Positions 7,153 through 63,008 of a DNA stretch of 64,000 bases are shown here, in pieces. The first letter of the stretch is position 1. Every line of letters begins with the position of its first letter. Below the pieces are notes generated by a model that searched no databases, was not told the DNA's origin, and saw only the letters and a list, made by a program, of their open reading frames with translations. The translations under genes and the position numbers were made by a program. Where the stretch lies: assembly GCA_963828125.1 (NCBI GenBank), contig CAWHDP010000001.1:256001-320000 (forward strand), written 5' to 3'. This DNA is from an uncultured Chlamydiae bacterium. Lineage in GTDB: Bacteria > Chlamydiota > Chlamydiia > Chlamydiales > SM23-39.

Positions 7153-7224
7153 TCCGGGTTAGCTCAGTGGTAGAGCAGTGGACTGTTAATCCATTGGTCG
7201 TATGTTCGAATCATACACCCGGAG
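7153..7224 (+). tRNA. tRNA-Asn(GTT), no encoded CCA; integration target
   Basis: Cloverleaf: acceptor TCCGGGT/ACCCGGA, D arm GCTC-AGTGGTA-GAGC, anticodon arm GTGGA-CTGTTAA-TCCAT, T arm GTATG-TTCGAAT-CATAC. Confidence 0.97.
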
Positions 7225-7271
7225 TTTCTCTATAGAAATTGGGGTCTAAAATCGGTTCAAAAAACCGCCCC

Positions 7272-7368
7272 CAAACAGTCAAATGCCGTAATCTTGCCGG
7301 AGTACGGAATTTCCTTAAATCACCCAAGCAGGGTGTTGGTTCCGTTAAATCTACGGAAATCATTAGAA
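7272..7368 (+). repeat. Left arm of module 1 (putative integrase arm-type sites), repeated at 62912-63008
   Basis: CAAACAGTCAAATGCCGTAATCTTGCCGGAGTACGGAA... is near-identical at 62912; TGCCG(T/G)A at an 11-bp period. Confidence 0.75.
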
Positions 7369-7436
7369 CATCCTTTTTTACTAGCCAATTTCAAGCGCAT
7401 GGATTGTTACGCCAATTCGCTTGTGAAGGAGTTAAA

Positions 7437-8501
7437 ATGGGTTCGATTCGTCAAAGACCACTGAAAAACGGTGGCGTTCGTTATCAAGCTGAAGTTCGTC
7501 TTAAAGGTCATCCTACTCTTGTTGCCATGTTCGATAGAAAAACCGACGCGAAAAGCTGGGTTCAAAAAGTTGAGACAGATATTCGCAACGGTCGCCATCA
7601 TCTCTATTCTGAAGCCATGCGTCATACTTTCGCAGAAGCTGTGGAACGCTACTGTAAAGAACAGCCCGTAACGATTGCGAAGAAAGGGCATCTTGATTGG
7701 TGGGTCAAGGAAATGGGGGCTATCTACTTACAGGATATACGACCAGCGGTGATTTCCGAAAAAAAACAAAAACTCCTCACTGAGCCGAATCATAAAGGCA
7801 CTATCCGGACCAAGAGCACATGCAATCGTTACTTAGCCACCCTCAGCCATCTGGTGAATATCTGTGTAAAACAGTGGGAGTGGGCGACTGAGAATCCGGT
7901 GAGGAAGATCTCTCGTGAAAAAGAGCCGAGAGAAAGAACCCGCTTTCTCAATCCTCAAGAGCGAAGTCGATTCCTTGAGGCATGCCGTGAAAGTGATAAT
8001 CCCGATCTCTTCGCGTTTGTTGTGCTTCTCCTAAGTACGGGATGCCGATATAACGAGGCGCGATGTCTGAAATGGACTGATGTCGATCTTGCACAAGGAA
8101 AAATCACGATCACAAAATCAAAGAACTCTGATATGCGGTCTCTTCCAATTCGAGGACTGGTTTTGGATTTATTCAGAGATTTGTCAGCAAGGCGTCTATC
8201 GCTTAGTTATGTTTTTCCTGGTCAAGATAAGTCAAAACCTCTGGAATTTCGGAGAGCTCTTAAAACTGCTATTAAACGAGCTGGATTGCAGGGATTCCGC
8301 CCGCACGACTGTCGTCATTCTTATGCGACCGAAATGCTGGCCCAGGGGCTTTCCTTGGGAGAGATTGGCCATCTGTTAGGCCACCGCAGCGTTTCAATGA
8401 CAAGGCGCTATGCCCACCTTGTTGAATCTCGATCTGTAGATGCTGTTGCAAAAATGTCAGAACAAATTTTTCAAGGAGTTGAAAATGGACGAGCAATCTA
8501 A
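7437..8501 (+). CDS. Tyrosine recombinase / phage-type integrase (intact)
   Basis: R (TGCRYNE), K (KSKN), HDCRH, LGH and RRYAH catalytic motifs; N-terminal arm-binding-like domain; AAGGAG RBS before ATG 7437. Confidence 0.95.
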   Translation: MGSIRQRPLKNGGVRYQAEVRLKGHPTLVAMFDRKTDAKSWVQKVETDIRNGRHHLYSEAMRHTFAEAVERYCKEQPVTIAKKGHLDWWVKEMGAIYLQDIRPAVISEKKQKLLTEPNHKGTIRTKSTCNRYLATLSHLVNICVKQWEWATENPVRKISREKEPRERTRFLNPQERSRFLEACRESDNPDLFAFVVLLLSTGCRYNEARCLKWTDVDLAQGKITITKSKNSDMRSLPIRGLVLDLFRDLSARRLSLSYVFPGQDKSKPLEFRRALKTAIKRAGLQGFRPHDCRHSYATEMLAQGLSLGEIGHLLGHRSVSMTRRYAHLVESRSVDAVAKMSEQIFQGVENGRAI

Positions 8502-9342
8502 GCCCCCTCATAATTTGGTCTCACTGACTTCTGAGGCGTTTTGGGAAAAACTTGATCAAATACACGATGACATAAGAGAACGTTTTTTTGGATACACATA
8601 TAAAATATTGTCAACGAAAACTCTGAGACGAGATGACAGTAATGAAACGCTTGTAGAGGCTCTTTGTTGTTATGAGGAATGGTACGAAAAAAACAAAGAC
8701 AGTATTTATTTCGAATGTGACAGTGCATGTCATTTTTTAAGATTGGTTCTTGAAAGAAATGCCCCTCTTTTTGGTTATGAAGAAGAAGTCTTCGGTCCAT
8801 TGAACATCAAAAGAGATCGTTCGGGATTGTCGGAGCCGCAGAAAAAGGAGATAGCCTTTCAGGCAGGTGCGCAAGTGCTTTGGTACCTGAAAAAAAGTAA
8901 AATCCCGACAATACAGGAGATGCAAGAATTGTTGCTCAATAAAACCCATCCATTTTTTGAAATTCTAGCAGCAGGAGATCCGAATTTATCTTTTGGCTCA
9001 CGCACTGTTAGTAACTGGATAAGCAAAGTATTTCCAATTCCGCAGGATGCAAGAAGAGGGCGCCCTTCAAAGGTTGCAATTTCTCCGACGGCGTTTGAAT
9101 GCTTGGTCTGTATTCCAGGAATTTTCTCAGAAAGGGGTGCAGTTATTAACTTTTCAATACTTCAATTTGTTTTAACATCTATTTCTCGGTTTTTAGAGAA
9201 GTTGGAATGGACACGAGAACAGATTATTAATTCAGAGATCTTTAAGCTCTATGCGAATCCAGTTCATCCTTTTCTTCGGATTTATAATGCAGTCTGGGTT
9301 CATCAAGTCTTCTTGAAAAATAGCAGTATTTTTACCCCATAA
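8485..9342 (+). CDS. Hypothetical protein overlapping the integrase stop
   Basis: Long ORF with AAGGAG RBS; same position as 21846-24097 in module 2. Confidence 0.7.
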   Translation: MDEQSKPPHNLVSLTSEAFWEKLDQIHDDIRERFFGYTYKILSTKTLRRDDSNETLVEALCCYEEWYEKNKDSIYFECDSACHFLRLVLERNAPLFGYEEEVFGPLNIKRDRSGLSEPQKKEIAFQAGAQVLWYLKKSKIPTIQEMQELLLNKTHPFFEILAAGDPNLSFGSRTVSNWISKVFPIPQDARRGRPSKVAISPTAFECLVCIPGIFSERGAVINFSILQFVLTSISRFLEKLEWTREQIINSEIFKLYANPVHPFLRIYNAVWVHQVFLKNSSIFTP

Positions 9343-9466
9343 TTTAGGTGCCATCAACGACGATTATTTAAAATTCTAGATACGTCAATCTAAAGCTGTT
9401 TGGATTTTAAGGAATACTCCGGCAAGAGATTTCCAGAACAAAAAAACGGTTTTAAGGAGACGTATC

Positions 9467-9661
9467 ATGAATCAATTACCTACGCAATACCTAGATAAGA
9501 ACCAAGCTCTTCAAAAATACCCTTTTCTTACAGCGAACATGCTGAAGAACCTTTTGTTTAAAGACATTGGAGGTTTTAGAGGCAAGGTCGTGAGGAAAGT
9601 CGGCCGTCGTGTTTTTTTGGACGAGGTGGCTTTACTGCGTTTCATAGCTGATAGCAAGTGA
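9467..9661 (+). CDS. Small excisionase/AlpA-like DNA-binding protein
   Basis: 64 aa with a KVGRRVFLD wing-like motif, AAGGAG RBS, directly upstream of the replication gene. Confidence 0.65.
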   Translation: MNQLPTQYLDKNQALQKYPFLTANMLKNLLFKDIGGFRGKVVRKVGRRVFLDEVALLRFIADSK

Positions 9662-9667: not shown

Positions 9668-11683
9668 ATGTTAGCAGCTGTAAATGAAAAAGCCGCTGGA
9701 GGGAACCAAGCGGCTGACTCTCGAGAAAAAATCGAAAATTTAGACCTAGATTGTAATGAAAATCTCAATTTTCCGAAACCTGTTTCTAGAGAAGATTCGA
9801 AACAGAAAATGGAATATTTAATCATTCCTAAGACACTGACAGCAAAGAATCAAATAGAAGTGTTCCTTAAGACCGAAAAGAAAAATCTATCGCTCACTTG
9901 GCGAGGGGCAAAGAAATCGTTAAGCGGAGAGTGGCCAAAATCGGAGACGCCTTATTTTAGCATTCAGGAGAGCAGAAAAGTAGACCTACTGAAACTCCTC
10001 AAGAAGGTAAAGATTCCTATAGACGAGATTGAATTGCGCGAATTCATTCCGCCTCCTGAGATCCCAAAATATTTGAAGAAAGCGAATCGAATACAAGAGG
10101 CTGGAAATCAATATAATAAGGCTTTGCAGGAGATCGAATTTAAAGAAGCAGAAGAATTAGAAAATGCTAAGTCTGTGTTTATTACAGAAGATATTTCGGC
10201 CACTGAATATTTGCAGCGTATTGGAGAAATTAAAAATCGATATGCGCCTCAAAAGCAACATTTCCTGGATCTTGCAAATCGGAACTATGAAGCCGCCAAT
10301 GTGGTGCATGAGCAAGGAGAAGAAAGCTTAAAAGCGGGAAACGAAGAGCCAGTAGATCAAAATCAAATTGTTGCAGCATTCAATCAATCATTCGCGATCA
10401 TTGAGGTCCCCCAATTTGGCATTATAGAGTTTGGGAAAGACAAAATTTGGATCCACAAGAAGCGAGATATTTTGGATCGCTTTCAGAATCAGAAAGTCAT
10501 CACTGGTTATATAATCATGGACAATGGGGATTCAAAGGCGATTCATAAAACGAAAGCTGAAATCTGGCTAAGTGCTCTGGATCGAAATACTTATTATACG
10601 ATTGATTTCCGACCGGATCAGTCACCAGGTGAATTTATCGAAAATGGGAAACGGATCTACAACTCTTGGGTAGGTCTTTGTGTCAAACCTAAGAAAGGGA
10701 ACTGTGAATTGTTTAAGAGGCATATGCTAGAGATCATTTGCGCAGGGGATAGGGTTAATTTTGATTACTTATGGAGACTTGTTTCCAATTGGGTTCAGCG
10801 CCCCTGGGAACGCACATGCTCCCCTGTATTTAGAGGGGCTCAGGGAATAGGAAAAGGGGCCTTTACAGAAACGATTGGGAAAATATTTGGCCCTACTTAC
10901 TTTCTTACCAACGAGCATGAGCAGGTTTTTGGAAGGTTCAATGCCGCTATTATGGGGAAAGTACTCCTCCATCTCGATGAAGCGCTTGTTGATGGGGGGC
11001 GTCGATTCATAGGGAAGGTTAAGGGAATCATTACCGGACCTCAGTTTCCAATTGAGATGAAAGGTAGAGATCCAATCTCCATGAATAACCCGAGAAAAAT
11101 GATGATCTCTTCGAATGAGTCTTTCGCTATTCCGGTTGATGCTGATGATCGCAGATTTCTTTTTTTGGATGTGGCTCCCCGTCGGGCTAGAGATATCGAA
11201 TACTTTAAAAATTTATTCCATGAGATCAATAACGGAGGCGTAGAAGCTCTTTTGTACGACTTATTGAATACCGATTTGAAGGGATTTGATCCGATGCAGC
11301 TTCCTCGAGGAGGGCAAAAGTTTGGTTTTGATAATAAAATTGCATCGGCGGGATCATTTCATAAATTCCTTTTCCAGGCTTTCTCTGAAGGAACGTTTAA
11401 CCTTGGAGCTATGGCAGGAAAATGGACGACTGAAATTCGAACAGATCTTCTGTATGATCATTATCTCGATTTTTGCGATCCAAGAAAACTGAGTCCCGTT
11501 ATGGAGGAGGCAGTGGGACGAGAGCTTCAAAAAATGCTCGGGAAGACTGGATTTTCAAAAACAAGAAGAAGATTCGATGGAGGTCCAAAATACGTGTATG
11601 TAGTTCCGGATTTGACAAAATGTAAAGAGGCGTTTGCGGAGGCGTATAAGACAACCTCAACCAATATTTTTTGTGAGGACTGA
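9668..11683 (+). CDS. Primase-associated SF3-type helicase (DUF5906/NrS-1-like C-terminal domain)
   Basis: Walker A GAQGIGKG, Walker B LHLDEA, FNAAI, IEMKG, SN...DDRRF motifs. Confidence 0.8.
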   Translation: MLAAVNEKAAGGNQAADSREKIENLDLDCNENLNFPKPVSREDSKQKMEYLIIPKTLTAKNQIEVFLKTEKKNLSLTWRGAKKSLSGEWPKSETPYFSIQESRKVDLLKLLKKVKIPIDEIELREFIPPPEIPKYLKKANRIQEAGNQYNKALQEIEFKEAEELENAKSVFITEDISATEYLQRIGEIKNRYAPQKQHFLDLANRNYEAANVVHEQGEESLKAGNEEPVDQNQIVAAFNQSFAIIEVPQFGIIEFGKDKIWIHKKRDILDRFQNQKVITGYIIMDNGDSKAIHKTKAEIWLSALDRNTYYTIDFRPDQSPGEFIENGKRIYNSWVGLCVKPKKGNCELFKRHMLEIICAGDRVNFDYLWRLVSNWVQRPWERTCSPVFRGAQGIGKGAFTETIGKIFGPTYFLTNEHEQVFGRFNAAIMGKVLLHLDEALVDGGRRFIGKVKGIITGPQFPIEMKGRDPISMNNPRKMMISSNESFAIPVDADDRRFLFLDVAPRRARDIEYFKNLFHEINNGGVEALLYDLLNTDLKGFDPMQLPRGGQKFGFDNKIASAGSFHKFLFQAFSEGTFNLGAMAGKWTTEIRTDLLYDHYLDFCDPRKLSPVMEEAVGRELQKMLGKTGFSKTRRRFDGGPKYVYVVPDLTKCKEAFAEAYKTTSTNIFCED

Positions 11684-11946: not shown

Positions 11947-11988
11947 GCCGATAGGATCTGGACTATCTTTTGTAGAGTGGGGTTTTTT

Positions 11989-12414
11989 ATGAAAAGCACG
12001 TCAGAAAAACAAAAGTTTATTGAATTGAGAGCAAGAGGTTTGTCGTTTGATAAAATCTCCCAAGAACTCGGCATTTCCAAACCGACTTTGCTGAAGTGGA
12101 GTCAGGATTATGGCAAGGAAATCGCTAACTTGCTCTATTTTCAATTTGAATCAACGCTCACGCAGTTTCGTCTAGAGAAGCGTGCCAGGATTGAATCGAT
12201 GGCGACCATTTTAGCTAAGGCGATAGAGGAGTTGAAATCGAGATCCTTCGAGGAGCTTAGCGCAAAAGAGCTCATGAGCATTGTAGGGTATGCTAGCGAA
12301 AAATTGGAGACAGAGTTTTCCCGAGTGCGATACATCACAGATGAATGCATAGATCCGATGGATAGGATAGAGGATGAAGTCCTTGCCCCTAAAACTTTAC
12401 CATTTCCTTACTAA
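11989..12414 (+). CDS. Helix-turn-helix protein (paralog of 31373-31795)
   Basis: ELRARGLSFDKISQELGISKPTLLKW HTH; shared C-terminal LAPKTLPFPY. Confidence 0.8.
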   Translation: MKSTSEKQKFIELRARGLSFDKISQELGISKPTLLKWSQDYGKEIANLLYFQFESTLTQFRLEKRARIESMATILAKAIEELKSRSFEELSAKELMSIVGYASEKLETEFSRVRYITDECIDPMDRIEDEVLAPKTLPFPY

Positions 12415-12607
12415 AATTTTCCCAATCCAGGTTCATTTTTTGGCTGCACCAATATTTTCCCTCAAATGTAAACATTCCTCCTAGCAAGACGCGCTCAACA
12501 TAAGCTGAATAAAAAACCGTCGGAACGTCAGGCTGTTAAATTGATGTAGCTGTTTGACTTTTTTGAAAATCAATGGCATCCTAGCGGATTAAAATCTGGG
12601 AACAGCC

Positions 12608-12802
12608 ATGCCAAAGAAAGAAACAGAAACTTCCAAAAAAGCCAAGACGACAGTCTACATGACGGAAGAGGAAGAGGTTTTTCTGACTGAATTATTCATT
12701 AAAAGGCTCCGAGAACGTCGGAAAACTGATAAATCAGCTCTTCTATGTGAGGGAATCCGTTTGTTATTTGAAAAGGAAATAGGGAGCATGACTAATGTCT
12801 AA
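12608..12802 (+). CDS. Small ribbon-helix-helix-like protein
   Basis: KTTVYMT strand followed by two helices; near-identical paralog at 46325-46522. Confidence 0.65.
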   Translation: MPKKETETSKKAKTTVYMTEEEEVFLTELFIKRLRERRKTDKSALLCEGIRLLFEKEIGSMTNV

Positions 12803-13853
12803 GAAGCCCGAAAGCATATTGAATGAGCCAGCTGTCCACGGCGATTCCTCTAGTGAATACACTTCAACCTTACAGACAATTGTCAGTAAGATAGAGGTTG
12901 CTCAAACAAGAGCGATAAAGGCCGTAAACGTCGAATTGGTCTCGATTTATAGAGATATCGGCCAGATCATCCATGAAAAACAAGAGACCGCGGGTTGGGG
13001 AGCATCCATCGTGGAGCGGCTCGCAACTGATTTAAGAAATTTCTTTCCAAAAACCAAGGGGTTCTCCTCTCGTAACTTATGGATTATGAGAGACTTATAC
13101 GTTTCCTATCGGGATCATGAAAAACTGCAGACACTGTCTGCAGAAATTAGCTGGTCTCACAATGTGGCTATCTTATCGAAATGCCAAGATCGCCTAGAAC
13201 GAGAGTTTTATATACGCATGTCCAAGAGGAATGCTTGGAGTTATCGCGCCCTTTTGAACTACATAGAGAGTAAAACGTATGAAAGGACGATGGCCAGCCA
13301 AGAAAATTTTGAGGCCAACCTTCCAAAAAAAATGACTCCTGAAGCCAAATTGGCAATGAAGGACGAATATTCGTTTGATTTTTTAGAGCTTGGAGAGGAA
13401 CACACGGAACGTGAGCTGGAGCGTGCGGTTGGCAAGAACATAGAATTGTTTTTGCGAGAGGTTGGTAATGCCTACACCTTCGTAGGATCTCAATATCGTC
13501 TTGAAATAGATGGGCAAGAATTTTTTATCGACCTTCTCCTATATCACCGCAAGCTTAAATCATTAGTAGCGATTGAGTTGAAAGTGGGCCCCTTTATTCC
13601 CGAACATGTTGGGAAAATGCAATTTTATCTGGCCGTGCTCAATGACACTGTCCGCCTTGCTGATGAAAACCCATCGATTGGGATCATCCTATGCAGAGAA
13701 AAAAGCAGACTGATTGTTGAGTATGCTCTTAAAGACAGCAATAAACCCATTAACGTCGCTGCCTACAAAACTGTAACGACTTTGCCGAAAGAGTTTAAGG
13801 ATGAGCTACCGTCGCCGGATCAAATAGCACTTTTACTCGAACACATCAATTAA
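12795..13853 (+). CDS. YhcG/DUF1016 PDDEXK nuclease family protein
   Basis: GFSSRNL..MR, ISWSH, KDEYSFDFL, FIDLLLYHRKL...IELK, GKMQFYL, IGIILC motifs. Confidence 0.92.
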   Translation: MSKKPESILNEPAVHGDSSSEYTSTLQTIVSKIEVAQTRAIKAVNVELVSIYRDIGQIIHEKQETAGWGASIVERLATDLRNFFPKTKGFSSRNLWIMRDLYVSYRDHEKLQTLSAEISWSHNVAILSKCQDRLEREFYIRMSKRNAWSYRALLNYIESKTYERTMASQENFEANLPKKMTPEAKLAMKDEYSFDFLELGEEHTERELERAVGKNIELFLREVGNAYTFVGSQYRLEIDGQEFFIDLLLYHRKLKSLVAIELKVGPFIPEHVGKMQFYLAVLNDTVRLADENPSIGIILCREKSRLIVEYALKDSNKPINVAAYKTVTTLPKEFKDELPSPDQIALLLEHIN

Positions 13854-13869
13854 CAGAAGACTTTCGATT

Positions 13870-15069
13870 ATGTTTGAATCAATTGTTGTAACCGCAAGAA
13901 ATTCTTTCGAATATTCCAAGCCTTTGGATATTGGTTCTTTAGTCGAAAGTATGTTTTTTTATGGAAAAAGTACACTCGTGGCTAACTACGTGATGCTCGA
14001 TCAGCTGTATCAATATTTTGGTGGGGAATATCTATACAGATTGCTGAGCGAAGAATTTCTAAATATTGTTTATTTGGAGTCGACAGTAGGCATTCGAACT
14101 GATAAACAAAACGAAATAGACTATCACAATATTATCCAGTTTAATTCACCTCAACACCAGTTCCAAGATAAATTGAGAGAACTCTGCATTAGCGCGAGCG
14201 GGAAAAAGGGCGCTGCACGAAGGCTTGCTCAGAGACTTGAAAGATATATTAGCGTGAGCAGGGAGACGCCTAAAGTATTAGAAGGGGCAAAAGAATCCAT
14301 TCTCAATCAAAGATACACGGAGTCTTCTGCTAGAATAATTCTTAAGGAATTAGTCCCAAATTTAGAATTAAATGAAATAGGCATTTTTAAGACTCATCAA
14401 GAAAGAGATGGGATCGTTTTAGAGACAGATATCAATTTTTCCAAGGTGAATGAAGTATATCATCAAAGAGTGTCTCCGTCTGACTCAACGATTACCCCTG
14501 CATTTATCCTTGCCCATATACTCAAACTTGAAGAGGAGTTGTTTTTTGCCTCTTCACATTTATCGGAATTGTGTTGCAGCGACTTAAGCTCTCAGTTGGG
14601 TATGAATAAAATTGATTACCTAATGGAAAGGAGCGCTAAGAGTAGCCGGAACCTTCAGAATTTTAACGAGATTGTTTTCAACGATGTGAAGACCATCCGA
14701 GAAGCAGTGAATGCAAATCAAGTCGATTTAGCGGATTTATTTAAAGCGCTTGAGCAATCACGAAAGTTTAAAAAGTGGCTTCATGGTCTGCCTCCTGATG
14801 CGCATTTATTCAAAAGCTATCATGAAGAAATTACGCGTGAATCTTTCCTTCAAAAACTCCCTGGCAAAGCCATCCGCTATTCCGTTTTTGCGAGCCTTGG
14901 GTTATTAGCCGATGCGTGCCTTCCGAAAACTAAAGCAGTTCTAACAGCTCTATCTCTTGGTGCATTTGATACATTTTTTCTCGATAGATTTGCTCTGGGG
15001 TGGAAACCCAATCAATACGTTGAGGGGAGTTTGAGAAAATTGGTTAGGGAAAAAGAGAGTAAACGTTGA
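13870..15069 (+). CDS. Hypothetical protein (399 aa)
   Basis: Long AT-rich ORF in the cargo operon; no motif recognised. Confidence 0.7.
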   Translation: MFESIVVTARNSFEYSKPLDIGSLVESMFFYGKSTLVANYVMLDQLYQYFGGEYLYRLLSEEFLNIVYLESTVGIRTDKQNEIDYHNIIQFNSPQHQFQDKLRELCISASGKKGAARRLAQRLERYISVSRETPKVLEGAKESILNQRYTESSARIILKELVPNLELNEIGIFKTHQERDGIVLETDINFSKVNEVYHQRVSPSDSTITPAFILAHILKLEEELFFASSHLSELCCSDLSSQLGMNKIDYLMERSAKSSRNLQNFNEIVFNDVKTIREAVNANQVDLADLFKALEQSRKFKKWLHGLPPDAHLFKSYHEEITRESFLQKLPGKAIRYSVFASLGLLADACLPKTKAVLTALSLGAFDTFFLDRFALGWKPNQYVEGSLRKLVREKESKR

Positions 15070-16470
15070 ATGAAAAAATACGTCTTTAAGTCCTACAGCA
15101 AGATTTTCCCTGAACTCTTTCTTAGAGAAAAAGAAAGGATTTCCTCTCGTGTAAAAACGGCTTTGGCTATTGAGCATATTGGAAGCACATCAGTTCCTAA
15201 TTTAGGCGGGAAAGGGATCATTGATATTGCTATTGCCGTTCATAGACAAGACATGGATTCAGTATCAGAGCAGCTTCAAAGTTTAGGTTATGAATTCAGA
15301 CCCACTTTCAGTACTCCCGATCGATTCTATTATATTATCTATTTACCTGATCCTGAAGAGGGGGAAAGAAGGTATCACGTCCATTTGACATATCCAGAAA
15401 ATAGCGAATGGGGACAGTTTATTGGCTTTAGGGACTACTTGAGAAATCATCCAGATGAAGTTGAGGAATATGCTGCGATGAAAAAGCAGGCTGCGGAAGA
15501 AGCAAATCATGAAGGCGAGCGCTATCGAAAAATCAAAGAACCTATGTTCAAAAAAATCAGGTCCTTAATGGCTCAGGATCAGGAAGGTAAGCGGTTACTC
15601 GTAGAGGAAGACTTCGTACGCCGTTTAGTGGCTACTCAGTTTCCTCAGTGGAAAGATCTTCCGATCAAAGCGGTCTCCGTCAGCGGATGGGATAATAGGA
15701 CGTTTCATCTGGGCGATCACATGCTTATTCGCATGCCAAGCGCGGCAGAATATGCGCTTCAAGTAGAAAAGGAGCAGCATTGGCTGCCGAAGCTGGCCCC
15801 CTTTTTGCCTCTGCCAATTCCAATGCCTTTAGCGGTTGGAGAGCCAATGGATGGCTATCCTTGGAAATGGTCGGTTTATGGTTGGTTGGCGGGTGAGACG
15901 GCCGCCTCGGGGCATATAGCAGATCTGTGTAAATTTGCAGTTGATCTTGCGAAATTCCTCAAGGCTTTCCAATCCATTGACTCGACAGGTGGGCCTTTGC
16001 CTGGTCTTCACAGCTTTTATCGCGGAGGGTCATTGATGACCTATGATGCAGAAGTCAGACAGGCCCTCGCCACTCTCGAGGGAAAGATCAATGTTAGGGC
16101 TGCGACCCAAGTCTGGGATACGGCTCTTGAGACTGCTTGGAACGGAAAGCCTGTGTGGGTTCATGGCGACATCAGTGCTGGCAATCTATTAGTTCAAAAG
16201 GGGTTCCTCTCTGCTGTAATCGATTTCGGACAGCTGGCTGTTGGTGACCCAGCTTGTGATTTGGTGATTACCTGGACATTTTTCAATGGGGAAAGTAGGA
16301 AGGTTTTTCAGGATGAGCTTCTACTCGACGAGGGAACATGGGCCAGAGGGCGTGCTTGGACACTTTGGAAATCCCTGGTTGTCGCTGCTGGCTATACGAA
16401 TCCAAATAACTTCGAATCTGTGCGATGTTGGGATATTATAAAAGAAGTGCTGGAAGAAAAAAATGATTGA
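15070..16470 (+). CDS. GrpB (UPF0157) domain fused to an aminoglycoside phosphotransferase-like kinase
   Basis: IEHIGSTSVPNLGGKGIIDI...FRDYLR; then GWDNRTF, HGDISAGN, IDFG...GDPACDL. Confidence 0.88.
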   Translation: MKKYVFKSYSKIFPELFLREKERISSRVKTALAIEHIGSTSVPNLGGKGIIDIAIAVHRQDMDSVSEQLQSLGYEFRPTFSTPDRFYYIIYLPDPEEGERRYHVHLTYPENSEWGQFIGFRDYLRNHPDEVEEYAAMKKQAAEEANHEGERYRKIKEPMFKKIRSLMAQDQEGKRLLVEEDFVRRLVATQFPQWKDLPIKAVSVSGWDNRTFHLGDHMLIRMPSAAEYALQVEKEQHWLPKLAPFLPLPIPMPLAVGEPMDGYPWKWSVYGWLAGETAASGHIADLCKFAVDLAKFLKAFQSIDSTGGPLPGLHSFYRGGSLMTYDAEVRQALATLEGKINVRAATQVWDTALETAWNGKPVWVHGDISAGNLLVQKGFLSAVIDFGQLAVGDPACDLVITWTFFNGESRKVFQDELLLDEGTWARGRAWTLWKSLVVAAGYTNPNNFESVRCWDIIKEVLEEKND

Positions 16471-16504
16471 GAATCCATACTATTCTGAAAAATAAGAGAA
16501 TCGA

Positions 16505-17359
16505 ATGAAACACACTGACTATATCGAAGTTGACGGCTTTAAATTCCGATACCTCACAGAAGGACATGGCCCTGACACACTGGTTATCGGTAGCTCCCTC
16601 TATTACTCGCGTAGCTTTTCTCAAAATCTCCGAAAGTCTTTGCGATTGCATTTCATTGATCATCGCGGGTTTGCAGAGCCCCCTACTCATGGAATCAATG
16701 AGGTATCATCTTTTGATGTGCTTCTAGATGATATCGAACAAATAAGACAAAAACTCTCTCTGAAAAAATGTATCGTCATTGGACATTCCGCCAATGGTCG
16801 ATTGGCTCTTGAATACGCCAAAAAATATAAAGAACATGTGTCTCATGTTGTGATGATTGGTACGCCACCAAATATGGGGCTAGACAATCTTGCAATGGCC
16901 GCGTGTAATTGGGATGAATCAGTTTGGCCAGAAAGAAAAGCCGCGTTTGAGCAAAACATGAAGATTTTCTCAAATGAAGAGCTCGGCAAGCTGCCTCGGG
17001 ATCAGCAATTCTCTAAAATGAACGCTCGCAATGCTCCCAAAAACTGGTACGACTATTGTTTTGACTCAAGCTTCCTTTGGCAGGGGGTAAAACCCAATAT
17101 CAAGATCCTTGATCAAATACATCTTCAATTTGGACGTGAGATTGATATTTCAAAAGAGCTAGAGTCGCTGGATTGTCCTGTCATGGTAGTCTATGGTCGT
17201 TTTGATTTTGCTGTTCCACCAGTACAATCTTGGGATTCTTTCCGTTCCAAGTTCAAGGATCTAACCGTCCGTATTTTTGAAAGAAGCGCTCATAGTCCTC
17301 ACTATGAGGAAGCGAGCCTTTTCGATGAGGAGTTACTAAAATGGGTAAGGAGAACATGA
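16505..17359 (+). CDS. Alpha/beta fold hydrolase
   Basis: DHRG, GHSANG nucleophile elbow, G.FD, SAHSPH.EE. Confidence 0.88.
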   Translation: MKHTDYIEVDGFKFRYLTEGHGPDTLVIGSSLYYSRSFSQNLRKSLRLHFIDHRGFAEPPTHGINEVSSFDVLLDDIEQIRQKLSLKKCIVIGHSANGRLALEYAKKYKEHVSHVVMIGTPPNMGLDNLAMAACNWDESVWPERKAAFEQNMKIFSNEELGKLPRDQQFSKMNARNAPKNWYDYCFDSSFLWQGVKPNIKILDQIHLQFGREIDISKELESLDCPVMVVYGRFDFAVPPVQSWDSFRSKFKDLTVRIFERSAHSPHYEEASLFDEELLKWVRRT

Positions 17360-50765: not shown

Positions 50766-50812
50766 GGAGAAAATGTGGATCCTCTCATCTCTCGATATAT
50801 TGAGGAAAATTT

Positions 50813-53508: not shown

Positions 53509-54229
53509 GTGCGCCCGGCAGGGCGCAATCACTAGAGAGTGAAAGTCTCTCATGGACCCGATAAGGGGAACCATTAGCAATTGACAAGGGTGTCCACAGA
53601 AAGGGTTATGGCATCGCTTAAAGAGGTCTTAGAAGAGCGCCTGAAACTTAAGATCAACGAAGAGAAAAGCGCGGTAGCTAGACCCTGGAGTCGCAAATTT
53701 CTTGGATATTCAATGACAGTCGATAAAAAGACGAGATTGAAGGTATCTCCAAAAGCCATAGAACGGCTGAAGGATAAAATGAAAGAGAAGTTCCGGCAAG
53801 GGCGAGGTAGAAATCTAGGAAAGTTTATCGAGGAACTCAAGCCTCTACTGGGAGGGTGGATTAACTACTTTCGACTAGCGGAGACCAAGAAAGCAATCGA
53901 AGAACTGGACTGGTGGATAAGACGTAAGCTGCGATGCATTATCTGGCGGCAGAAGAAGAACGGAAGGGCAAGAACTGACGTAATGATGAAGATGGGAATA
54001 GACAAAGTACGCGCTCGGACATCGGCGGGAAATAGACGAGGTCCATGGTGGAACTCTGGAGCCCCGCATATGAATGAAGCTTTCCCAAAATCATACTTTG
54101 ATAACCTAGGGCTTGTATCTCTGCTCGATCAACAGTGGAAGTTCCAGAGGATGTTGTGAACCGCCGTATACGGATCCGTACGTACGGTGGTGTGAGGGGA
54201 CGGAGGCCATAAACCTCCTCCCACTCGAT
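53509..54229 (+). mobile_element. Internally deleted group IIC intron
   Basis: 5' GTGCGCCCGGC directly after a hairpin and T run; domain V GAACCGCCGTATACGG...CGTACGGTGGTGTGAG; domain VI ending CTCGAT. Confidence 0.88.
53581..54159 (+). pseudogene. Group II intron RT/maturase C-terminal remnant
   Basis: LKLKINEEKS, FLGYS, GWINYF, LD.WIRRKLR (thumb/X domain); no YADD. Confidence 0.88.
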
Positions 54230-55652: not shown

Positions 55653-55937
55653 ATTTTTCTGGAATGAATGGTGCACTGGCGGTGCAGTTAGATATAAAAA
55701 CTGACCACAAGGGACCACAAGCCATAATAATCCATTCACTCTCAAGTCCTTGATTCTCTTGTTGCTAGTAATTGTAGGTTGTGGTCGGCTGAAGATGGGT
55801 GTGTATTTGAAGTATCTGTCTTTTAGTGGTCTAACAGATAGATACTTAAGTTCTCTTTTGACCGAATTTTATGGAAAAGTTCATTGGTAAGAGGATAACA
55901 TGGGAGACAAACTTGGGAGATAAATTGCAAGGCTGAT

Positions 55938-57511: not shown

Positions 57512-57558
57512 GACTGTTAAGCCATTGGTCGTATGTTCGAATCATACACCCGGAGTTT
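57512..57558 (+). repeat. att core copy 7
   Basis: tRNA 3' half with one T>G change after the anticodon loop. Confidence 0.92.
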
Positions 57559-57777
57559 CTTCCCGCATTTCCTAAATAGCTCTGGTACAAGCAATTTCAA
57601 ACCAGAGGCTCTTATGTTCAAATTTCGCAAAGTGCAGATTTTCCGCACTTTTTCCGCAAATGACTGGAACCCTCCAGAATCAAAATATTTATTTCACGCT
57701 GACAAAGGTGAACGATTTTCTAACATGTCATTGATAGAAAAGCTAACAACCAGTATCCTGATGGTCAGGAGTGAAGT

Positions 57778-58557
57778 ATGGAACAAAGTCTCGGGGACCG
57801 CATTAAAGTCCTTCGCGAAGAAATGGATATTAGCCAAGAGGCATTGGCTAAAATGTTGGGTATCGATCGTGCTAGTTTATCCCAAATTGAAAATGGGAAG
57901 AGATCGGTAAAGGCGGAGGAACTGTCTTCGATCTCCAAGGCTCTGAACGTATCAGCAGATATGCTCCTCGGGCTGACTTCTTCGCCAGAAATTTTCCTAG
58001 AGAAAAACCAAGACAAACTTGCAATACGCCCGATCAGAATCAATATCCCTCAAAAAAAGACACATAAGTTTAAGGAAGTTTTACTCTATATTCTTTCCAA
58101 AGTTGGCGCAAAGCCGAATGTAGGAGAGACGGTTATTTATAAGCTATTATATTTCATCGACTTTAATTTTTATGAAAAATATGAGGAACAGCTCATTGGA
58201 GCGACGTATATCAAAAATCATCACGGTCCCACCCCAATAGAGTTTCGGGCGGTTATTGAAGAAATGGTATCTGCAAAGGAACTGGAATGCGTTCAGAGTA
58301 AATATTTCAATTTTCCTCAGAGAAAATACTTGCCCCACAGGGCATCAGATCTTTCTCTACTTACTGGTGAAGAACTTCAGTTAATCGATGATGTTCTCAA
58401 TAAACTTTCAAACATGACGGCTACTGAAATTAGCGAATATTCCCACGGAGATGTCCCATGGATTACCACCCCCAATGGCGAGAAAATTGACTATGAATCG
58501 GTCTTTTACCGCACCGCCCCCTACAGCGTCAGAGATTACAGTACCGAGCTTTCGTGA
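57778..58557 (+). CDS. XRE HTH fused to a DUF4065 (SocA/Panacea) antitoxin domain
   Basis: SQEALAKMLGIDRASLSQIENG; KLLYF.DF, HGP.P, SEYSH.D.PW. Confidence 0.85.
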   Translation: MEQSLGDRIKVLREEMDISQEALAKMLGIDRASLSQIENGKRSVKAEELSSISKALNVSADMLLGLTSSPEIFLEKNQDKLAIRPIRINIPQKKTHKFKEVLLYILSKVGAKPNVGETVIYKLLYFIDFNFYEKYEEQLIGATYIKNHHGPTPIEFRAVIEEMVSAKELECVQSKYFNFPQRKYLPHRASDLSLLTGEELQLIDDVLNKLSNMTATEISEYSHGDVPWITTPNGEKIDYESVFYRTAPYSVRDYSTELS

Positions 58558-58900
58558 AATCACTCGCTCGCCTGCTTTCGAAAAGGACTTAAAAAAACTC
58601 TTGAAGCGGTTCCAGAGTTTAGAAAAAGACCTCGAAATTTTTCAGAAGGTCCAGCTTATTCTTTTTCATAAGCAGGGACTGGACAATGGGGGTATTGTTC
58701 GGATAGAGGGGTTAGGGCAGGGGATTTTGCAGATTTTCAAAGCTCGGAAATTTGCCTGCCGTTCTTTAAAAGGAAAGGGAGTTCAGTCGGGGATTCGAGT
58801 GATTTACTCATACACTGTGGAACTCGACCGAATTCGGTATATCGAAATATATTATAAGGGAGACCAAGAAATAGAAACGAAGGCCCGTTTCCATGTATAG
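58451..58900 (+). CDS. RelE/ParE-like toxin (start uncertain)
   Basis: FEKDLKKLLKRF.SL..DL, KAR......KG..SG.RVIY, IEIYYKGD. Confidence 0.72.
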   Translation: MSHGLPPPMARKLTMNRSFTAPPPTASEITVPSFREITRSPAFEKDLKKLLKRFQSLEKDLEIFQKVQLILFHKQGLDNGGIVRIEGLGQGILQIFKARKFACRSLKGKGVQSGIRVIYSYTVELDRIRYIEIYYKGDQEIETKARFHV

Positions 58901-59079
58901 TCAAAAGCTAAAGTCTGACTCAATACATTGAGAAAAATGCCTTTATGCTGTTAAGCTGCTATCCTTAGCGGGCAAAAGGTTTATGGGTGCTAAAGGTTAT
59001 ATTATTTAGCGAGAAGTATCCAGAAAGGGCATGATAACGGCCAGCCGAAAATTGCACAGATGCCTATTGGGGTTTAAAA

Positions 59080-59649
59080 ATGAATAAAATGAACAAACTT
59101 CTTTTCGCCATTGGCTTAACTTTTTCATGGGGCTATTGCTATGCAAGTGTAAATCAAGAAGTTGAAATTCAGGGACTTGAAATGAATTATAGCACGGAGC
59201 AACAAGCAAAGAAATTTTTCATCGGTCTTGAATTAAGGACAAACAATGAAGAATGTTCTTATGCTATGCCAGCTCATAAGGAGAGGTTTTTCAAAGAAAA
59301 TATTCCCGCTAAGATTCCGAATAAAATCAATGGCAATATTCTCGCACTTTACACTGATTACGAAGGAGATTACACGAAACCTTACTCATGGATTCTCGGT
59401 TGTGAAGTGTCTAGTTTGAATGACGTGCCTGAGGGACTTGTAGGTAGGGCAATTCCTGAAGCTAGATATGCTGTTTTTACCACTCAAGGAGAGTTTCCTC
59501 AAGGACTGATTGTCGCATGGCAGGCAATTTGGAAGGCAAATCTCCCTCGTTCCTATACAAGCGATTTCGAAGTATATCGTTCTACTTTTGATCCTCAGAA
59601 AAATCCTGAGGTAAAGGTTTATATTGCTATAGAGAACGAGGGGCGATGA
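59080..59649 (+). CDS. GyrI-like/Cass2 effector-binding domain protein
   Basis: [20 protein letters not shown]...G, W..IW, R.Y..DFEVY, YIAI. Confidence 0.85.
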
Positions 59650-59650
59650 T

Positions 59651-59905
59651 ATGGAAACACAACACGATTTTTTACAGATTCAATTTGCTGATTTTCTCAA
59701 AGTAGATATTCGCGTAGGGACGATTGTGAATGTCGAAGACTACCCAGAAGCACGGAAGCCTGCTTATAAGTTAGAAATCGATTTTGGTGCATTCGGTAGG
59801 AAACGTTCCTCAGCGCAGATCACGCAACACGATTGCAAAGAAGATCTCATAGGCAAGCAAGTGATCGCGGTAGTTAATTTTCCTCCAAAGAAGTATGTCG
59901 ATTAG
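59651..59905 (+). pseudogene. csaA: CsaA-like tRNA-binding protein, C-terminally truncated
   Basis: [38 protein letters not shown], then an abrupt break. Confidence 0.78.
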
Positions 59906-60057
59906 CAAAAATGAGAAACTGCGGACGTGTTGAATGGTGGGTGCTCGACTGGAATGAACGAGCGATCAATTTTTATAAAAAAATTGGCGCGGTCCCTATG
60001 TCTGAGTGGACTGTATTTCGGCTTACAGAAGAATCTATCAATCGGTTAGTGCGGTAA
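59887..60057 (+). pseudogene. C-terminal fragment of an SSAT-like GNAT
   Basis: Alternate frame reads CGRVEWWVLDWNERAINFYKKIGA...W..FRL*. Confidence 0.75.
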
Positions 60058-60061
60058 GAAT

Positions 60062-60646
60062 ATGTCCAAACGAATACTCATGATTGCAGGCCCTAATGGC
60101 GCTGGTAAAACGACTATGACATTGGAACTCATTCGCGGTTGTTCGATGCTTTATGAATTCATCAACGCAGATGAAATCGCCAGAGGACTTGCCCCAAGGC
60201 ATCCAGAGAGTATGGCACTCACAGCTAGTAAATTGATGATTAAGCGGCTAAAGGAGCTACTAGATGCTGACAAGAGCTTTGCATTTGAAATCACAGCTTC
60301 AGGCACGAACTATGTAAAGCACTTAAAAGCTGCCAAGATGAAGGGATATGAGATCAGTCTCACATTCCTCTGGCTGTCTAAGCCAGAAGAGGCGGTTAAG
60401 CGAGTAGCTCAAAGGGTAAAGCAAGGAGGGCATCACGTTCCCGAGGGGTCTGTTATAAGGCGCTATTATTCAGGAATTAAGAATCTTATTCAGCATTATT
60501 TGCCTCTAGCTGACGAAGTTTTTATCATGGATAATTCTTCGGAAGAGTCTTCGAAGAGACTGATTGCTAGAAAAAATAAGAATGATCCTCTAGATATCCT
60601 AGATAGAGCTATTTGGAGAAAAATTGAGGAGACTGCCAATGAGTGA
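60062..60646 (+). CDS. Zeta-toxin-like P-loop kinase/ATPase
   Basis: AGPNGAGKTT, FINADEIA, RVAQRV.QGGH.VP...I.RRY. Confidence 0.85.
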   Translation: MSKRILMIAGPNGAGKTTMTLELIRGCSMLYEFINADEIARGLAPRHPESMALTASKLMIKRLKELLDADKSFAFEITASGTNYVKHLKAAKMKGYEISLTFLWLSKPEEAVKRVAQRVKQGGHHVPEGSVIRRYYSGIKNLIQHYLPLADEVFIMDNSSEESSKRLIARKNKNDPLDILDRAIWRKIEETANE

Positions 60647-60842
60647 CGACTTAGGTAAATATATATTGGAAGCTCATGAGAGAAGTTTTGAGAGGGCTTT
60701 TGAGACGGCTGTTCGTACTGATACAGCTCTTGTTTTCTCTCGCAATGGTAAGATTGTGGAAGTCAAACCTCCCTATCGATATGAGCTTGTTCCAATCAAA
60801 CCAGCTAAAAAGAAAAAAGCGACGGTGCGACGTAAAAAATAG
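60639..60842 (+). CDS. Small partner protein of the zeta-like ATPase
   Basis: Overlapping start; LVFSRNGKIV motif. Confidence 0.6.
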   Translation: MSDDLGKYILEAHERSFERAFETAVRTDTALVFSRNGKIVEVKPPYRYELVPIKPAKKKKATVRRKK

Positions 60843-60998
60843 TATCCCCCCGCTCCTCAGCATGGCACAAATTTGGCACACTGGGGCGCAAAAGCAGGCA
60901 GCACTGGCCAGCACAAGCCAAAAGTTCAAAAAATCCTAAACATTTAATCCTGTCGCTGCTACATTCTATGGGATGTTGTCAGGTGCTGTGCCTGAAGT

Positions 60999-61057
60999 GA
61001 CTGTTAATCCATGGGTCGTATGTTCGAATCATACACCCGGAGTTTCTCTATAGAAAT
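60999..61057 (+). repeat. att core copy 8, extending into the same downstream sequence as the intact tRNA
   Basis: One T>G change; continues GGAGTTTCTCTATAGAAAT as at 7221-7239. Confidence 0.92.
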
Positions 61058-61313
61058 AGGGGTAAAAGTACCCTCGAAAAAAGACTCTCTTGCCGGAGAA
61101 ATACGGAAATCCAACGGAGTTTGGAAATTCGTCCTTCAGTCATCCAAAACAGAGCCCACACAATTGTGTGTCGGGTTCTCTTTGGAGTGTTGATCCGGTG
61201 ATCCTCGGTATCAAATTCACACTCCTTTTCGAAACTAGCCTGACTTTACAAGTTAACTGAAAAAAAAGTCCATTTCTCGAGGAGAAATGGACAGACATGA
61301 TGTATTACCCCTT

Positions 61314-62078
61314 TTAGGTAGCTCCGATACTCGGCTCACTCGCTAAAACATCGCAAATTCCGAAAAGTTCGGCTAGTTTCTTTTGGAGGGGATTCATTCT
61401 GCTCATGGTAAACTGAGTTTTCTGTTTGCTTCCCTGAGGGGCCGAGTAAAGGAGAGCCACTTCTTTTATACCCGACAAGTCATCCAATAATTTTGGAAGA
61501 GAGAGTTCCGTGCCAGCCTCCCACGCCATTTTACGAGCCAAGGTTGCCAATAGCAGAGCCAAGACACAGTAGAGAGAATGTACTTTAATTTTTTGGTCTG
61601 TCCAATGGAACGCTGGCTGCCATCGGAGATACTCCCGATTTTTCATGAGTTTGAAAGCTTCCTCAATATTGGCCAGGTCATGGTAGCAAGAAATGACTTC
61701 CGTAGACAACCAGCTCAGTCTATTCGTGATGAGTAATGTTCTCCCAAGGTGTGTTGCTGTGAGATTTTCCAATCCTTCTCGATTCACAGAGTAGCGTAGG
61801 TTGTAAACCCCGCCGCTCTCGGATCAATCGACCGAAAATACTTTGTCCATATGTTGAGGCGATAGGATCTGTTTGAGCCGCTCTTTAATCTTGGTACCGG
61901 TAGGACGAGGTCCCTTCGGCTTCTTTTCACTGGACCAGGACAACAGGTAATGCTGAAGATTTTTGAGTTGATTTTGACATTTCGTCATACCCGCTGTTAT
62001 TGCCGCAAGCTGCTCAGTGAAAAAGCTCTCTGAATAGGACACCGTGATTACCTCAATTTTATGAGCACTTGCGATCAA
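61314..62078 (-). pseudogene. IS1634-like transposase C-terminal fragments
   Basis: GRTLLITN, YH.LANIEEAFKLMK, P.FHWTD.KI.VH...CVLALLL; N-terminus absent, internal break. Confidence 0.75.
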
Positions 62079-62106
62079 TCATTTTATCTTATTTTTTAGA
62101 GATGAT

Positions 62107-62409
62107 TCAAGTTAATCGTAAATTCAATCCTAAAGCAATCACCAGAGAAACAAGAGTATGCCATTTAGGATTACCCTTTTCTGAAAGAGTTTTGTAGAGG
62201 CTTTCTCTTCCTATGCCCGCTTTTTTTGCGAGATTCCCAACACCACCTTGTGCTTCGGCAACATTGCGAATAGCGACGAGGAAAAGATGTTGAGATTCTT
62301 CATCACCTTTAAGACTTTCTTCTAAGGCAGCATTGAGATAAGCAACGGCTTCATCGTGATCCTTTAGCTTTTCTAAAAGCCACTCTTGATAATTTTTATT
62401 TTTTGCCAT
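62107..62409 (-). CDS. Addiction-module antidote protein (HI1420-like HTH)
   Basis: AYLNAALEE, A.A.GG...LA.KAG..RESLYKTLS..GNP. Confidence 0.87.
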   Translation of the reverse strand: MAKNKNYQEWLLEKLKDHDEAVAYLNAALEESLKGDEESQHLFLVAIRNVAEAQGGVGNLAKKAGIGRESLYKTLSEKGNPKWHTLVSLVIALGLNLRLT

Positions 62410-62737
62410 GTTTTTTCTCCCTCAATTGGTACTCTTTTAAATACTCCTTAGCTTTATTAATGTCCTTGGTTTGCGAACTTTTATCACCACCACAAAGCAA
62501 GAGTACGACCTTATTGCCTCTTTTCGAGTAATAGACTCTAATTCCTGGCCCATAGTGAATTTTCAATTCTGCAATTCCATCACCAAGAGCCTTACAATCA
62601 CCAAAGTTTCCCACTTTTAGGCGATCAAGCCGTGTAAGGATTTTGGCGCGAGTATGCAGTTCCCTTAGGCTTTCAAACCAATCATCAAAAGGGCAGTGAC
62701 CAGAAGCTGTTTCGTAAAGCTCAATCTCGATTTCCAT
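62396..62737 (-). CDS. Addiction-module killer protein (HI1419-like RelE)
   Basis: PF..W...L, RL..GNFGD.K..G.G..EL.I.YGPG.RVYY, LLLCGGDK..Q.KDI. Confidence 0.88.
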   Translation of the reverse strand: MEIEIELYETASGHCPFDDWFESLRELHTRAKILTRLDRLKVGNFGDCKALGDGIAELKIHYGPGIRVYYSKRGNKVVLLLCGGDKSSQTKDINKAKEYLKEYQLREKKHGKK

Positions 62738-62838
62738 AATTTCATTGTATCCTGCAAGATACATTATTGACAAAAGGTTTGTAAAAGGCTAAATGTGAAG
62801 TGGTTAAAAATTTATCTTTAAAGCCTAACCAGTCAAAA

Positions 62839-63008
62839 GTTCGAAGTGTTCCCAGTATCTGGAGTTCTTCTATGAAAAATAGGGACAAAAGAGGACCTCA
62901 AAAAGAAGCCTCAAACAGTCAAATGCCGTAATCTTGCCGGAGTACGGAACTTCCTTAAATTACCCAAGCAGGGTGTCGATTCCGTTCAATTTACGGCAAT
63001 CATTAGAA
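62839..63008 (+). repeat. Degenerate junction with a module-1-type left arm
   Basis: GTTCGAA...GGAGTT remnant; GGAG lies 51 bp before CAAACAGTC, as at 7221/7272. Confidence 0.7.

What the first reader, a model, noticed from the sequence alone, without database searches (positions are those of the whole stretch)
7153..63008. tRNA-Asn-anchored, integron-like cassette array with one live integrase at its head
Seen: the tRNA 3' half recurs from 20372, 35515, 51581, 53058, 55192, 57512 and 60999, with a degenerate junction at ~62861. These cut the region into modules of about 13.2, 15.1, 16.1, 1.5, 2.1, 2.3, 3.5 and 1.9 kb. Only module 1 has an intact integrase, module 2 has a dead one, and the rest have none. 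Most of the small modules carry a toxin-antitoxin-type locus. Established: tyrosine integrases target tRNA anticodon loops and can form tandem islands; integron cassettes are rich in TA pairs, GNATs, kinases and Cass2 domains, the classes found here. Inference: this may be a cassette capture and shuffling platform in Chlamydiae, with the tRNA acting like attI and the tRNA halves plus arms acting like attC, mobilised in trans by integrase 1.
Basis: partly seen in the sequence, partly recalled or inferred. Interest (0 to 1): 0.88.

Follow-up and report, generated by a model that had tools for sequence, protein, structure and literature searches.

The report
Eroded island pile-up at chlamydial tRNA
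Several unrelated mobile gene islands inserted one after another at the same tRNA gene and then decayed into fused remnants that kept their toxin-antitoxin genes; this is a long example of a known process, not an integron, and its last junction is the end of a serine-integrase island.

Summary
In detail: tRNA-Asn, seven displaced 3' halves, the stated module sizes, one open and one stop-split tyrosine integrase, and TA-type loci in 4 of 5 small modules. The integron reading fails. Integrase 1 is P2/HP1-like (66 bits against an IntI cutoff of 265) and attC-like sites occur at chance level. Only module 1 has arms of one family at both ends; the rest look like deletion chimeras of at least five island families. 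The 'degenerate junction' (62826-62865) is not decay. It is a conserved site (53 of 300 genomes) that ends islands whose large serine integrase abuts the 3' end of tRNA-Asn. Two full-length relatives end in the same TA pair plus site, so module 8 is a remnant. That TA pair has moved between families. Four other tRNAs of this genome carry shorter stacks. A 99.5% duplicated junction and two ambiguous low-depth contig joints around module 4 suggest recent core-to-core rearrangement. Best reading: accretion plus erosion, as in CIMEs, tycheposon islands and Dehalococcoides ssrA islands. The scan earlier noted an integrase-less array at a chlamydial tRNA-Asn, and tRNA-end serine integrases in other phyla.

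The parts
7153..7224 (+). intact tRNA-Asn(GTT); target of all islands (anticodon loop for the tyrosine integrases, 3' end for the serine integrase)
   Evidence: crossover points inferred from where identity begins
7225..7400 (+). family-A left arm (module 1)
   Evidence: homologous to left arms of Int1-family islands at tRNA-Phe and tRNA-Asn in relatives
7437..8501 (+). open tyrosine integrase 1 (family A), P2/HP1-like, not IntI
   Evidence: relatives of 66-76% in 8 other of 301 genomes
9467..9661 (+). candidate excisionase, 64 aa
   Evidence: 49-71% homologs in 5 of 9 fetched family-A loci; nearest named Atlas clusters are excisionases at 0.89, a lead only
9668..11683 (+). P4/D5-type primase-helicase (DUF5906) of module 1
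   Evidence: below the TIGR01613 cutoff
11977..20123 (+). module 1 HTH gene, YhcG (PADLOC PDC-S02) and cargo (APH kinases, hydrolase, GNAT, cupin)
20200..20416 (+). family-A right arm plus displaced tRNA half (attR of module 1)
20417..20620 (+). family-B left arm (TGGCAC repeats) of module 2
   Evidence: same repeats at both ends of the complete island in L006
20711..21853 (+). tyrosine integrase 2 (family B), split by one in-frame stop
   Evidence: 58% to the L006 integrase, 37% to integrase 1
24588..28437 (+). replication module of the family-B island (DUF3987, zinc-ribbon/Toprim primase, helicase)
29102..29837 (-). Gp49 + HTH_37 TA-type pair inside module 2
33293..34857 (-). ISKra4-like element with inverted ends; cuts the 3' end of the Gp49 gene and fuses two remnants
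   Evidence: best family, below cutoff
34858..35613 (+). first copy of the duplicated junction (Gp49 gene, family-A right arm, core 35515, start of module 3)
46351..51631 (+). right half of a second family-A island (YhcG, GNAT cargo, right arm, core 51581)
   Evidence: 67-93% matches to module 1
51632..53103 (-). module 4: intact HTH_37 + Gp49 pair, family-A right arm, core 53058; left end of no recognised arm type
   Evidence: contig joints
52401..53156 (+). second copy of the duplicated junction (99.5%)
53509..54229 (+). internally deleted group II intron in module 5; empty site seen in L010
55020..55236 (+). family-A-like right arm and core 55192 (end of module 5)
55667..55785 (+). orphan family-C right arm with no core after it
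   Evidence: 71-72% to arms that directly precede a core in L005, L020, L040
55938..57556 (+). TIGR04255 gene, 93-aa ORF, PIN gene, truncated family-B-like right arm, core 57512 (module 6)
57557..61043 (+). module 7: family-D left arm, HTH-Panacea gene, Cass2, tRNA-binding and kinase genes, family-B right arm, core 60999
61044..61240 (+). family-A-variant left arm of module 8
   Evidence: 90% to the arm beside tRNA-Asn in L010; 75-83% to arms at tRNA-Phe in L094, L096
62107..62773 (-). RelE/ParE toxin + HI1420 antidote pair, exchanged between families
62866..63008 (+). family-A left arm of an older island whose body is gone
   Evidence: 92% over 100 nt to the module 1 left arm

Best explanation
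The region is a tandem stack of integrative islands that entered the single tRNA-Asn gene one after another, each pushing older ones downstream, and then eroded. At least four tyrosine-integrase families (arm types A-D) recombined in the anticodon loop and left tRNA 3' halves. A large serine integrase family recombined at the last bases of the tRNA and left the site at 62826-62865. Deletions, several at IS ends, removed integrase genes and some cores and fused left ends of one island to right ends of another. TA loci, which sit near right ends, survived. Module 1 is the newest and the only complete island. Integrase 1 with 9467-9661 can probably excise it, and possibly longer nested units that end at the other family-A right arms (cis-mobilisation). 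Shown: sites, arm families, chimeric ends, full-length relatives, TA transfer between families. Inferred: order of arrival, crossover points, TA-driven retention, any present activity.
For: Both ends match one family in 1 of 8 modules, as they do in the 3 complete control islands. An orphan arm lacks its core. Modules 2 and 3 hold family-A backbone pieces behind foreign left ends. All 8 fetched serine integrases at 75% or more to the L045 enzyme abut tRNA-Asn. Four such islands of 13.6-17.9 kb end in the 62826-type site, two of them (L102, L103) with the same TA pair beside it, and L102 is followed by a family-A left arm as in the window. tRNA-Met, -Leu, -Thr and -Phe of the same genome carry 2-3 displaced halves, several followed by integrase genes or remnants. 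Accretion, decay and integrase-less islands are described in PMC5704250, PMC3146451 and 10.1101/2020.12.28.424599.
Against: Contigs of two other runs join across module 4 in both reciprocal forms, and the 756-bp junction duplicate is very recent, so the stack is not inert. The left ends of modules 3-5 match no typed arm and could be functional arms of families I did not sample. Of 51 loci with the serine-type site, 39 hold no trace of the recombinase and 32 of 33 with an upstream Asn site lack a full integrase in the DNA held: integrase-less units are the rule, which also fits mobilisation in trans. A full-length parent was shown for module 8 only, not for modules 4-7.
Confidence: 0.76

Rival explanations
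1. Same origin by accretion, but some small TA modules (above all module 4) remain live non-autonomous units. They excise, duplicate or re-insert core-to-core through integrase 1, its tRNA-Phe sister or homologous recombination, so the locus works as a loose cassette store.
For:: run X4 skips 51587 to 53061 (depth 2.66) and run X2 goes back from 53060 to 51588 (depth 5.78). The 99.5% duplicate fits a recent duplication of a two-module unit. Five of eight right ends are family A. Relatives carry 1.0-2.4 kb core-flanked modules without integrase (L007, L011, L006, L038). The module 8 TA pair has crossed family lines.
Against: Both joints pass through an identical run of exactly 31 nt, the word length of the run index, in low-depth assembled contigs, so misjoins can give the same picture. 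The X2 joint also reads as loss of module 3. The 12-fold run shows neither joint and no depth excess. The left parts of the TA units differ from genome to genome.
Confidence: 0.17
2. A true integron-like platform: the tRNA acts as attI, the halves plus arms as attC, and integrase 1 captures and shuffles cassettes.
For: One open integrase heads the array; cargo classes (TA, GNAT, kinases, Cass2) overlap those of integron cassettes (the overlap itself is recalled).
Against: TIGR02249 66.3 bits against a cutoff of 265. Closest solved relatives are P2- and HP1-type integrases; IntI4 matches residues 271-333 only. An attC-like box pair occurs at 1 of 9 junctions, and 8 times in the region against 7.0 +/- 4.6 in 20 shuffles; arms do not fold better than shuffles. 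Modules are 1.5-16 kb, multigene, on both strands, with their own replication genes. The integrase lies inside module 1.
Confidence: 0.03
3. The array or its duplicated junction is an assembly artefact.
For: No listed contig bridges a core, and the well-covered run may be the source sample.
Against: Even depth over modules 3-8, double depth over the duplicate, 4 differences between the copies, distinct flanks at each core, and similar arrays in other genomes.
Confidence: 0.04

Closest known systems
Tandem accretion and CIMEs (cis-mobilizable elements) at ICE/IME att sites (PMC5704250, passages seen)
   Same: Integration, decay to an element without integration genes, then arrival of a new element at the same site.
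   Different: CIMEs keep their own attL and attR; most modules here have ends of two different families. No relaxase or conjugation gene was found among the 84 ORFs scanned.
Dehalococcoides ssrA genomic islands with serine integrase DsiB (PMC3146451, passages seen)
   Same: Serine integrase of about 500 aa on the reverse strand at attL, its 3' end overlapping the target RNA gene; tandem islands; many without an integration module.
   Different: The target here is tRNA-Asn (sister clades at tmRNA and Tyr-like halves). The right end is an element-borne site with a shifted T-arm-like motif rather than a 20-bp direct repeat. I did not look for a DsiA-like partner or compare the protein with DsiB.
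Tycheposons and tRNA-proximal additive islands of Prochlorococcus (10.1101/2020.12.28.424599, passages seen)
   Same: Small islands with integrase, excisionase, primase/helicase and cargo; neighbours separated by partial tRNAs; fragmented integrases further out.
   Different: Other phylum and cargo; hallmark gene profiles not tested; here at least five recombinase families share one tRNA.
Islander tandem arrays (PMC4383910, passages seen)
   Same: A tRNA gene plus displaced 3' fragments delimit islands in tandem.
   Different: [quoted passage not shown]
Integrons (IntI, attI, attC cassettes)
   Same: One integrase upstream of serial units rich in TA and small-molecule genes.
   Different: No IntI, no attC, double-stranded arm-type sites, multigene modules with mixed ends.

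Membership tests
Integron | IntI-family integrase | tested here: not met
   TIGR02249 66.3 against 265 bits; collinear with P2/HP1-type integrases, IntI4 matched over 271-333 only
Integron | attC sites (RYYYAAC...GTTRRRY, stable single-strand hairpin; motif recalled) | tested here: not met
   1 of 9 junctions; 8 in region against 7.0 +/- 4.6 shuffled; arm folding z from -2.2 to +1.0. No attC covariance model was run.
Integron | Small, mostly single-gene, co-oriented cassettes without replication genes | tested here: not met
   Modules of 1.5-16 kb with 2 or more genes on both strands; primase/helicase in modules 1-2
Integron | Integrase outside the array beside attI, with a cassette promoter | tested here: not met
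   Integrase 1 lies inside module 1, between its own arms; promoter not scanned
tRNA-targeted tyrosine-integrase island (module 1) | Intact tRNA, displaced 3' fragment, own integrase near one end, cognate arms at both ends | tested here: met
tRNA-targeted tyrosine-integrase island (module 1) | Excision to a circle | not tested
   The single read-laying run covered 44100-64000 only
CIME / accretion array | Tandem units at one att site, without integration and transfer genes, beside a functional element | tested here: met
   Modules 3-8
CIME / accretion array | Each unit keeps its own attL and attR | tested here: not met
   Cores are kept, but arm families differ or are unrecognised at the two ends of modules 2-8
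CIME / accretion array | Excision or transfer together with the neighbouring element | not testable with these tools
   Only ambiguous contig joints
Large serine integrase island at an RNA-gene end (DsiB-like) | Resolvase + Recombinase + zinc-ribbon protein on the reverse strand with its 3' end overlapping the target gene | tested here: met
   In relatives: L045 domains; 8 of 8 close homologs at tRNA-Asn. The window's own genome has no full copy, only two 69-aa pieces of 42-43%.
Large serine integrase island at an RNA-gene end (DsiB-like) | Distal motif 5 bp further from the crossover in attP than in attB (PMC3783163) | tested here: met
   GTTCGAA lies 11 nt before the terminal GA in the tRNA and 16 nt before it in 61 of 65 sites; the search pattern partly constrains the spacing and the crossover is inferred
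Large serine integrase island at an RNA-gene end (DsiB-like) | Orthology with DsiB and a DsiA-like partner | not tested
   No DsiB sequence was fetched

The most novel reading that the evidence does not exclude
Chlamydial tRNA-Asn works as a shared cassette dock. TA-stabilised mini-modules without integrase, such as module 4 and the TA pair with its serine-type site, still excise and re-insert under integrases supplied in trans by passing islands of several families. They would spread between chlamydial families and reorder within a population: an integron-like outcome reached with ordinary double-stranded att sites.
Probability: 0.13. Interest if true: 0.7.

Novelty: new member of a known kind. 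Interest (0 to 1): 0.36.

Why it matters
It removes a tempting 'new integron' claim and shows how such arrays form. It documents a long stack of at least five recombinase families at one tRNA, and transfer of a TA pair between families of this order. It gives a family of serine integrases with inferred att sites at the end of tRNA-Asn. Automated island finders would miss their right end, because it is not a tRNA fragment. These enzymes are testable integration tools whose target is a conserved gene end.

Tried and rejected
attC box scan and single-strand folding of the nine junctions: chance level; the few z-scores near -2 to -2.6 mostly include the tRNA T-arm. Search of 300 genomes with modules 6+7 (55240-60998): 70 matched, but only gene-sized or arm-sized pieces (at most about 760 nt, mostly 64-86%); only 2 candidates per genome were scored, so whole-module relatives could be missed. 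Modules 4 and 5 were compared only with 40 fetched loci, and their arms with 108. Joints 61063-62912 and 50758-51497 are module 1's paralogous arms laid on the stretch, not excisions. Runs X3-X9 hold small shares and say nothing on habitat. I rejected 'decayed tRNA half' for 62826-62865 because it is conserved across hosts whose tRNA T-arms differ. I rejected a special target-duplication mechanism as unneeded, but did not exclude it (see noticed). PADLOC gave YhcG = PDC-S02 and only weak or HTH-only hits otherwise. Rfam gave only the tRNA and one intron domain. Literature searches listed no paper on this chlamydial array or integrase clade; the library lacks most subscription papers, I read passages only and no supplements, so absence from print is not shown. 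No structure prediction or protein-database search was run.
Full report
1. Observation. ARAGORN and Rfam find one tRNA, Asn(GTT), at 7153-7224. Its 3' half, from the anticodon stem onward, recurs seven times in the window and nowhere else in the genome. Module sizes are as stated. Integrase 7437-8501 is open; 20711-21853 is split by one in-frame stop. TA-type loci lie in modules 4, 6, 7 and 8, and also in 2 and 3. The host is probably a chlamydia: the closest relatives of a serine integrase found in genomes of the same order lie in records titled Simkaniaceae, Parachlamydiaceae or Chlamydiae. I ran no direct taxonomic test.

2. Integron tests fail. Integrase 1 scores 66.3 bits on the integron-integrase model against a cutoff of 265. 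It aligns collinearly with P2- and HP1-type integrases and matches IntI4 over 63 residues only. An attC-like box pair overlaps 1 of 9 junctions; the region holds 8 against 7.0 +/- 4.6 in shuffles, and the arms do not fold unusually. Its family is an ordinary one: 12 matches in 9 of 301 genomes. Of the 10 foreign matches, 9 fell in fetched loci: 6 lie beside tRNA-Phe, 1 beside tRNA-Asn and 2 have no tRNA called in the DNA held. The 64-aa ORF 9467-9661 travels with the family (5 of those 9 loci, 49-71%) and resembles excisionases.

3. The module ends do not match. Complete islands carry the same short repeats in both arms (L006, L005 and the genome's own tRNA-Phe island). In the window this holds for module 1 only. 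Left and right ends are: M2 family B and A; M3, M4, M5 unrecognised and A; M6 a 12-nt start like the serine-island left end and a truncated B-like arm; M7 D and B; M8 A-variant and the serine site. An arm of a further family at 55667-55785 has lost its core. The right half of M3 is a paralog of M1, and M2 holds an M1-type HTH gene. An ISKra4-like element cuts the Gp49 gene of M2, with no matching flank on its other side. These are marks of deletion and fusion. That arm-type sites are needed on both sides is established for lambda-like integrases (own knowledge) and inferred for this one.

4. The 'degenerate junction' is another family's att site. Window 62770-62870 matches in 53 of 300 genomes. 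Among 63 loci fetched by this site, by the TA pair or by the tRNA, 51 hold the site; 33 have tRNA-Asn or a core upstream on the same strand, none on the other strand, and 10 of the other 18 hold under 5 kb upstream. In L045 the unit between tRNA and site starts with a large serine recombinase. Homologs occur in 61 of 301 genomes, not as a full gene in G000. All 8 fetched copies at 75% or more run antisense into tRNA-Asn and stop in its anticodon loop. Of 4 fetched copies at about 51%, 2 abut tmRNA and 2 abut what I read by eye as tRNA-Tyr halves. Four islands of 13.6-17.9 kb run from this gene to the site, and L102 and L103 carry the module 8 TA pair beside it. The T-loop motif lies 11 nt before the terminal GA in the tRNA and 16 nt before it in 61 of 65 sites. 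This 5-bp shift is the one described between attB and attP of serine integrases (PMC3783163, passages). I infer crossover at that GA. The design matches DsiB at Dehalococcoides ssrA (PMC3146451, passages), although the 2014 Islander paper knew no serine integrase at tRNA genes.

5. The TA pair moves. The antidote matches in 78 of 200 genomes and is 98-100% identical in 8 genomes of 6 families, 5 of them foreign. In L021, fourfold-degenerate sites are 70-76% identical for the TA genes and 27-35% for metG and recD; recD of three same-genus genomes gives 39-43%. The pair is adjacent to the serine site in 27 of 51 loci, a share raised by how loci were chosen. It also sits before other right arms (L006, L011, L031). 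The sequence left of it differs between genomes, so no fixed cassette exists.

6. Context. Four other tRNAs of G000 carry 2-3 displaced halves, several followed by integrase genes or remnants, and 9 of 10 other near-full integrase hits are open. Of 20 relatives' loci, some show an empty tRNA-Asn (L001, L004, L013), some a complete island (L005, L006), some small units without integrase (L003, L007, L011) or several cores (L008, L009). Modules 6-7 were not found as units.

7. Signs of activity. 34858-35613 equals 52401-53156 at all but 4 of 756 positions. This fits a recent duplication of a two-module unit followed by deletion (inference). In assembled contigs of four runs laid on 44100-64000, the well-covered run shows even depth and no true joint. 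Two low-depth runs of the same study show the two reciprocal joints around module 4. Both pass through an identical run of exactly 31 nt, so they may be misjoins. I count them as a hint only.

8. Verdict. A real, long, eroded accretion stack of a kind in print, with one complete island at its head. It works like CIME accretion, though most units fail the 'own attL and attR' criterion. It is not an integron. The useful new details are the chlamydial tRNA-Asn serine-integrase family with its att geometry, and the cross-family TA traffic. An earlier scan note gave me the CIME lead, which I checked against the papers and the sequence; the notes on tRNA-end serine integrases came after my own result and lower its novelty within the scan.

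Noticed in passing
L021, L022, L024, L049, L050, L052-L054, L057, L063, L067, L077: In 16 of 33 loci the 32-300 nt after the tRNA or core recur right after the serine-type site; in these 12 no recombinase trace remains. Either repeated arrival of related islands followed by deletion, or recombination between filled and empty alleles that restores the host flank. Unexplained.
   Followed up: partly
L081-L088: The integrated serine integrase gene reads through attL into the antisense tRNA-Asn and stops in the anticodon loop, so its C-terminus would differ on the circle, as noted for DsiB.
   Followed up: partly
L089-L092: A sister clade of about 51% identity abuts tmRNA (2) and tRNA-Tyr-like halves (2).
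   Followed up: no
window 53509-54229; L010 about 2060-2110: Internally deleted group II intron; a same-genus genome has the empty site, next to a module-8-type left arm and TA pair.
   Followed up: partly
window 36524-37909 (-): 461-aa ORF with about six 50-51-aa repeats and no Pfam or NCBIfam match; nearby DNA (37900-38681) belongs to a multi-copy IS.
   Followed up: no
window 38680-42063: An IS21-type element nested in another multi-copy IS (DUF4277/DDE); both recur in the genome at 98-100%.
   Followed up: no
window 31833-33248 (-): Ankyrin-repeat protein inside module 2, possibly host-interacting.
   Followed up: no
window 12795-13853 and 46407-47567: Two YhcG (DUF1016) paralogs; the first matches the PADLOC candidate PDC-S02.
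   Followed up: no
G000:C2 near 563979, 1101153, 1342251, 1678329: Shorter tandem stacks at tRNA-Met, -Leu, -Thr and -Phe; the Phe island's integrase is 77% identical to integrase 1 and has family-A arms.
   Followed up: partly
G000:C1 about 338400-343700 (beyond the window): Tandem duplication of two ORFs (279 aa and 592 aa, near-identical starts).
   Followed up: no
L048, L060: Serine-type sites lie near tmRNA and opposite tRNA-Ser with no tRNA-Asn in the DNA held; possible secondary targets.
   Followed up: no
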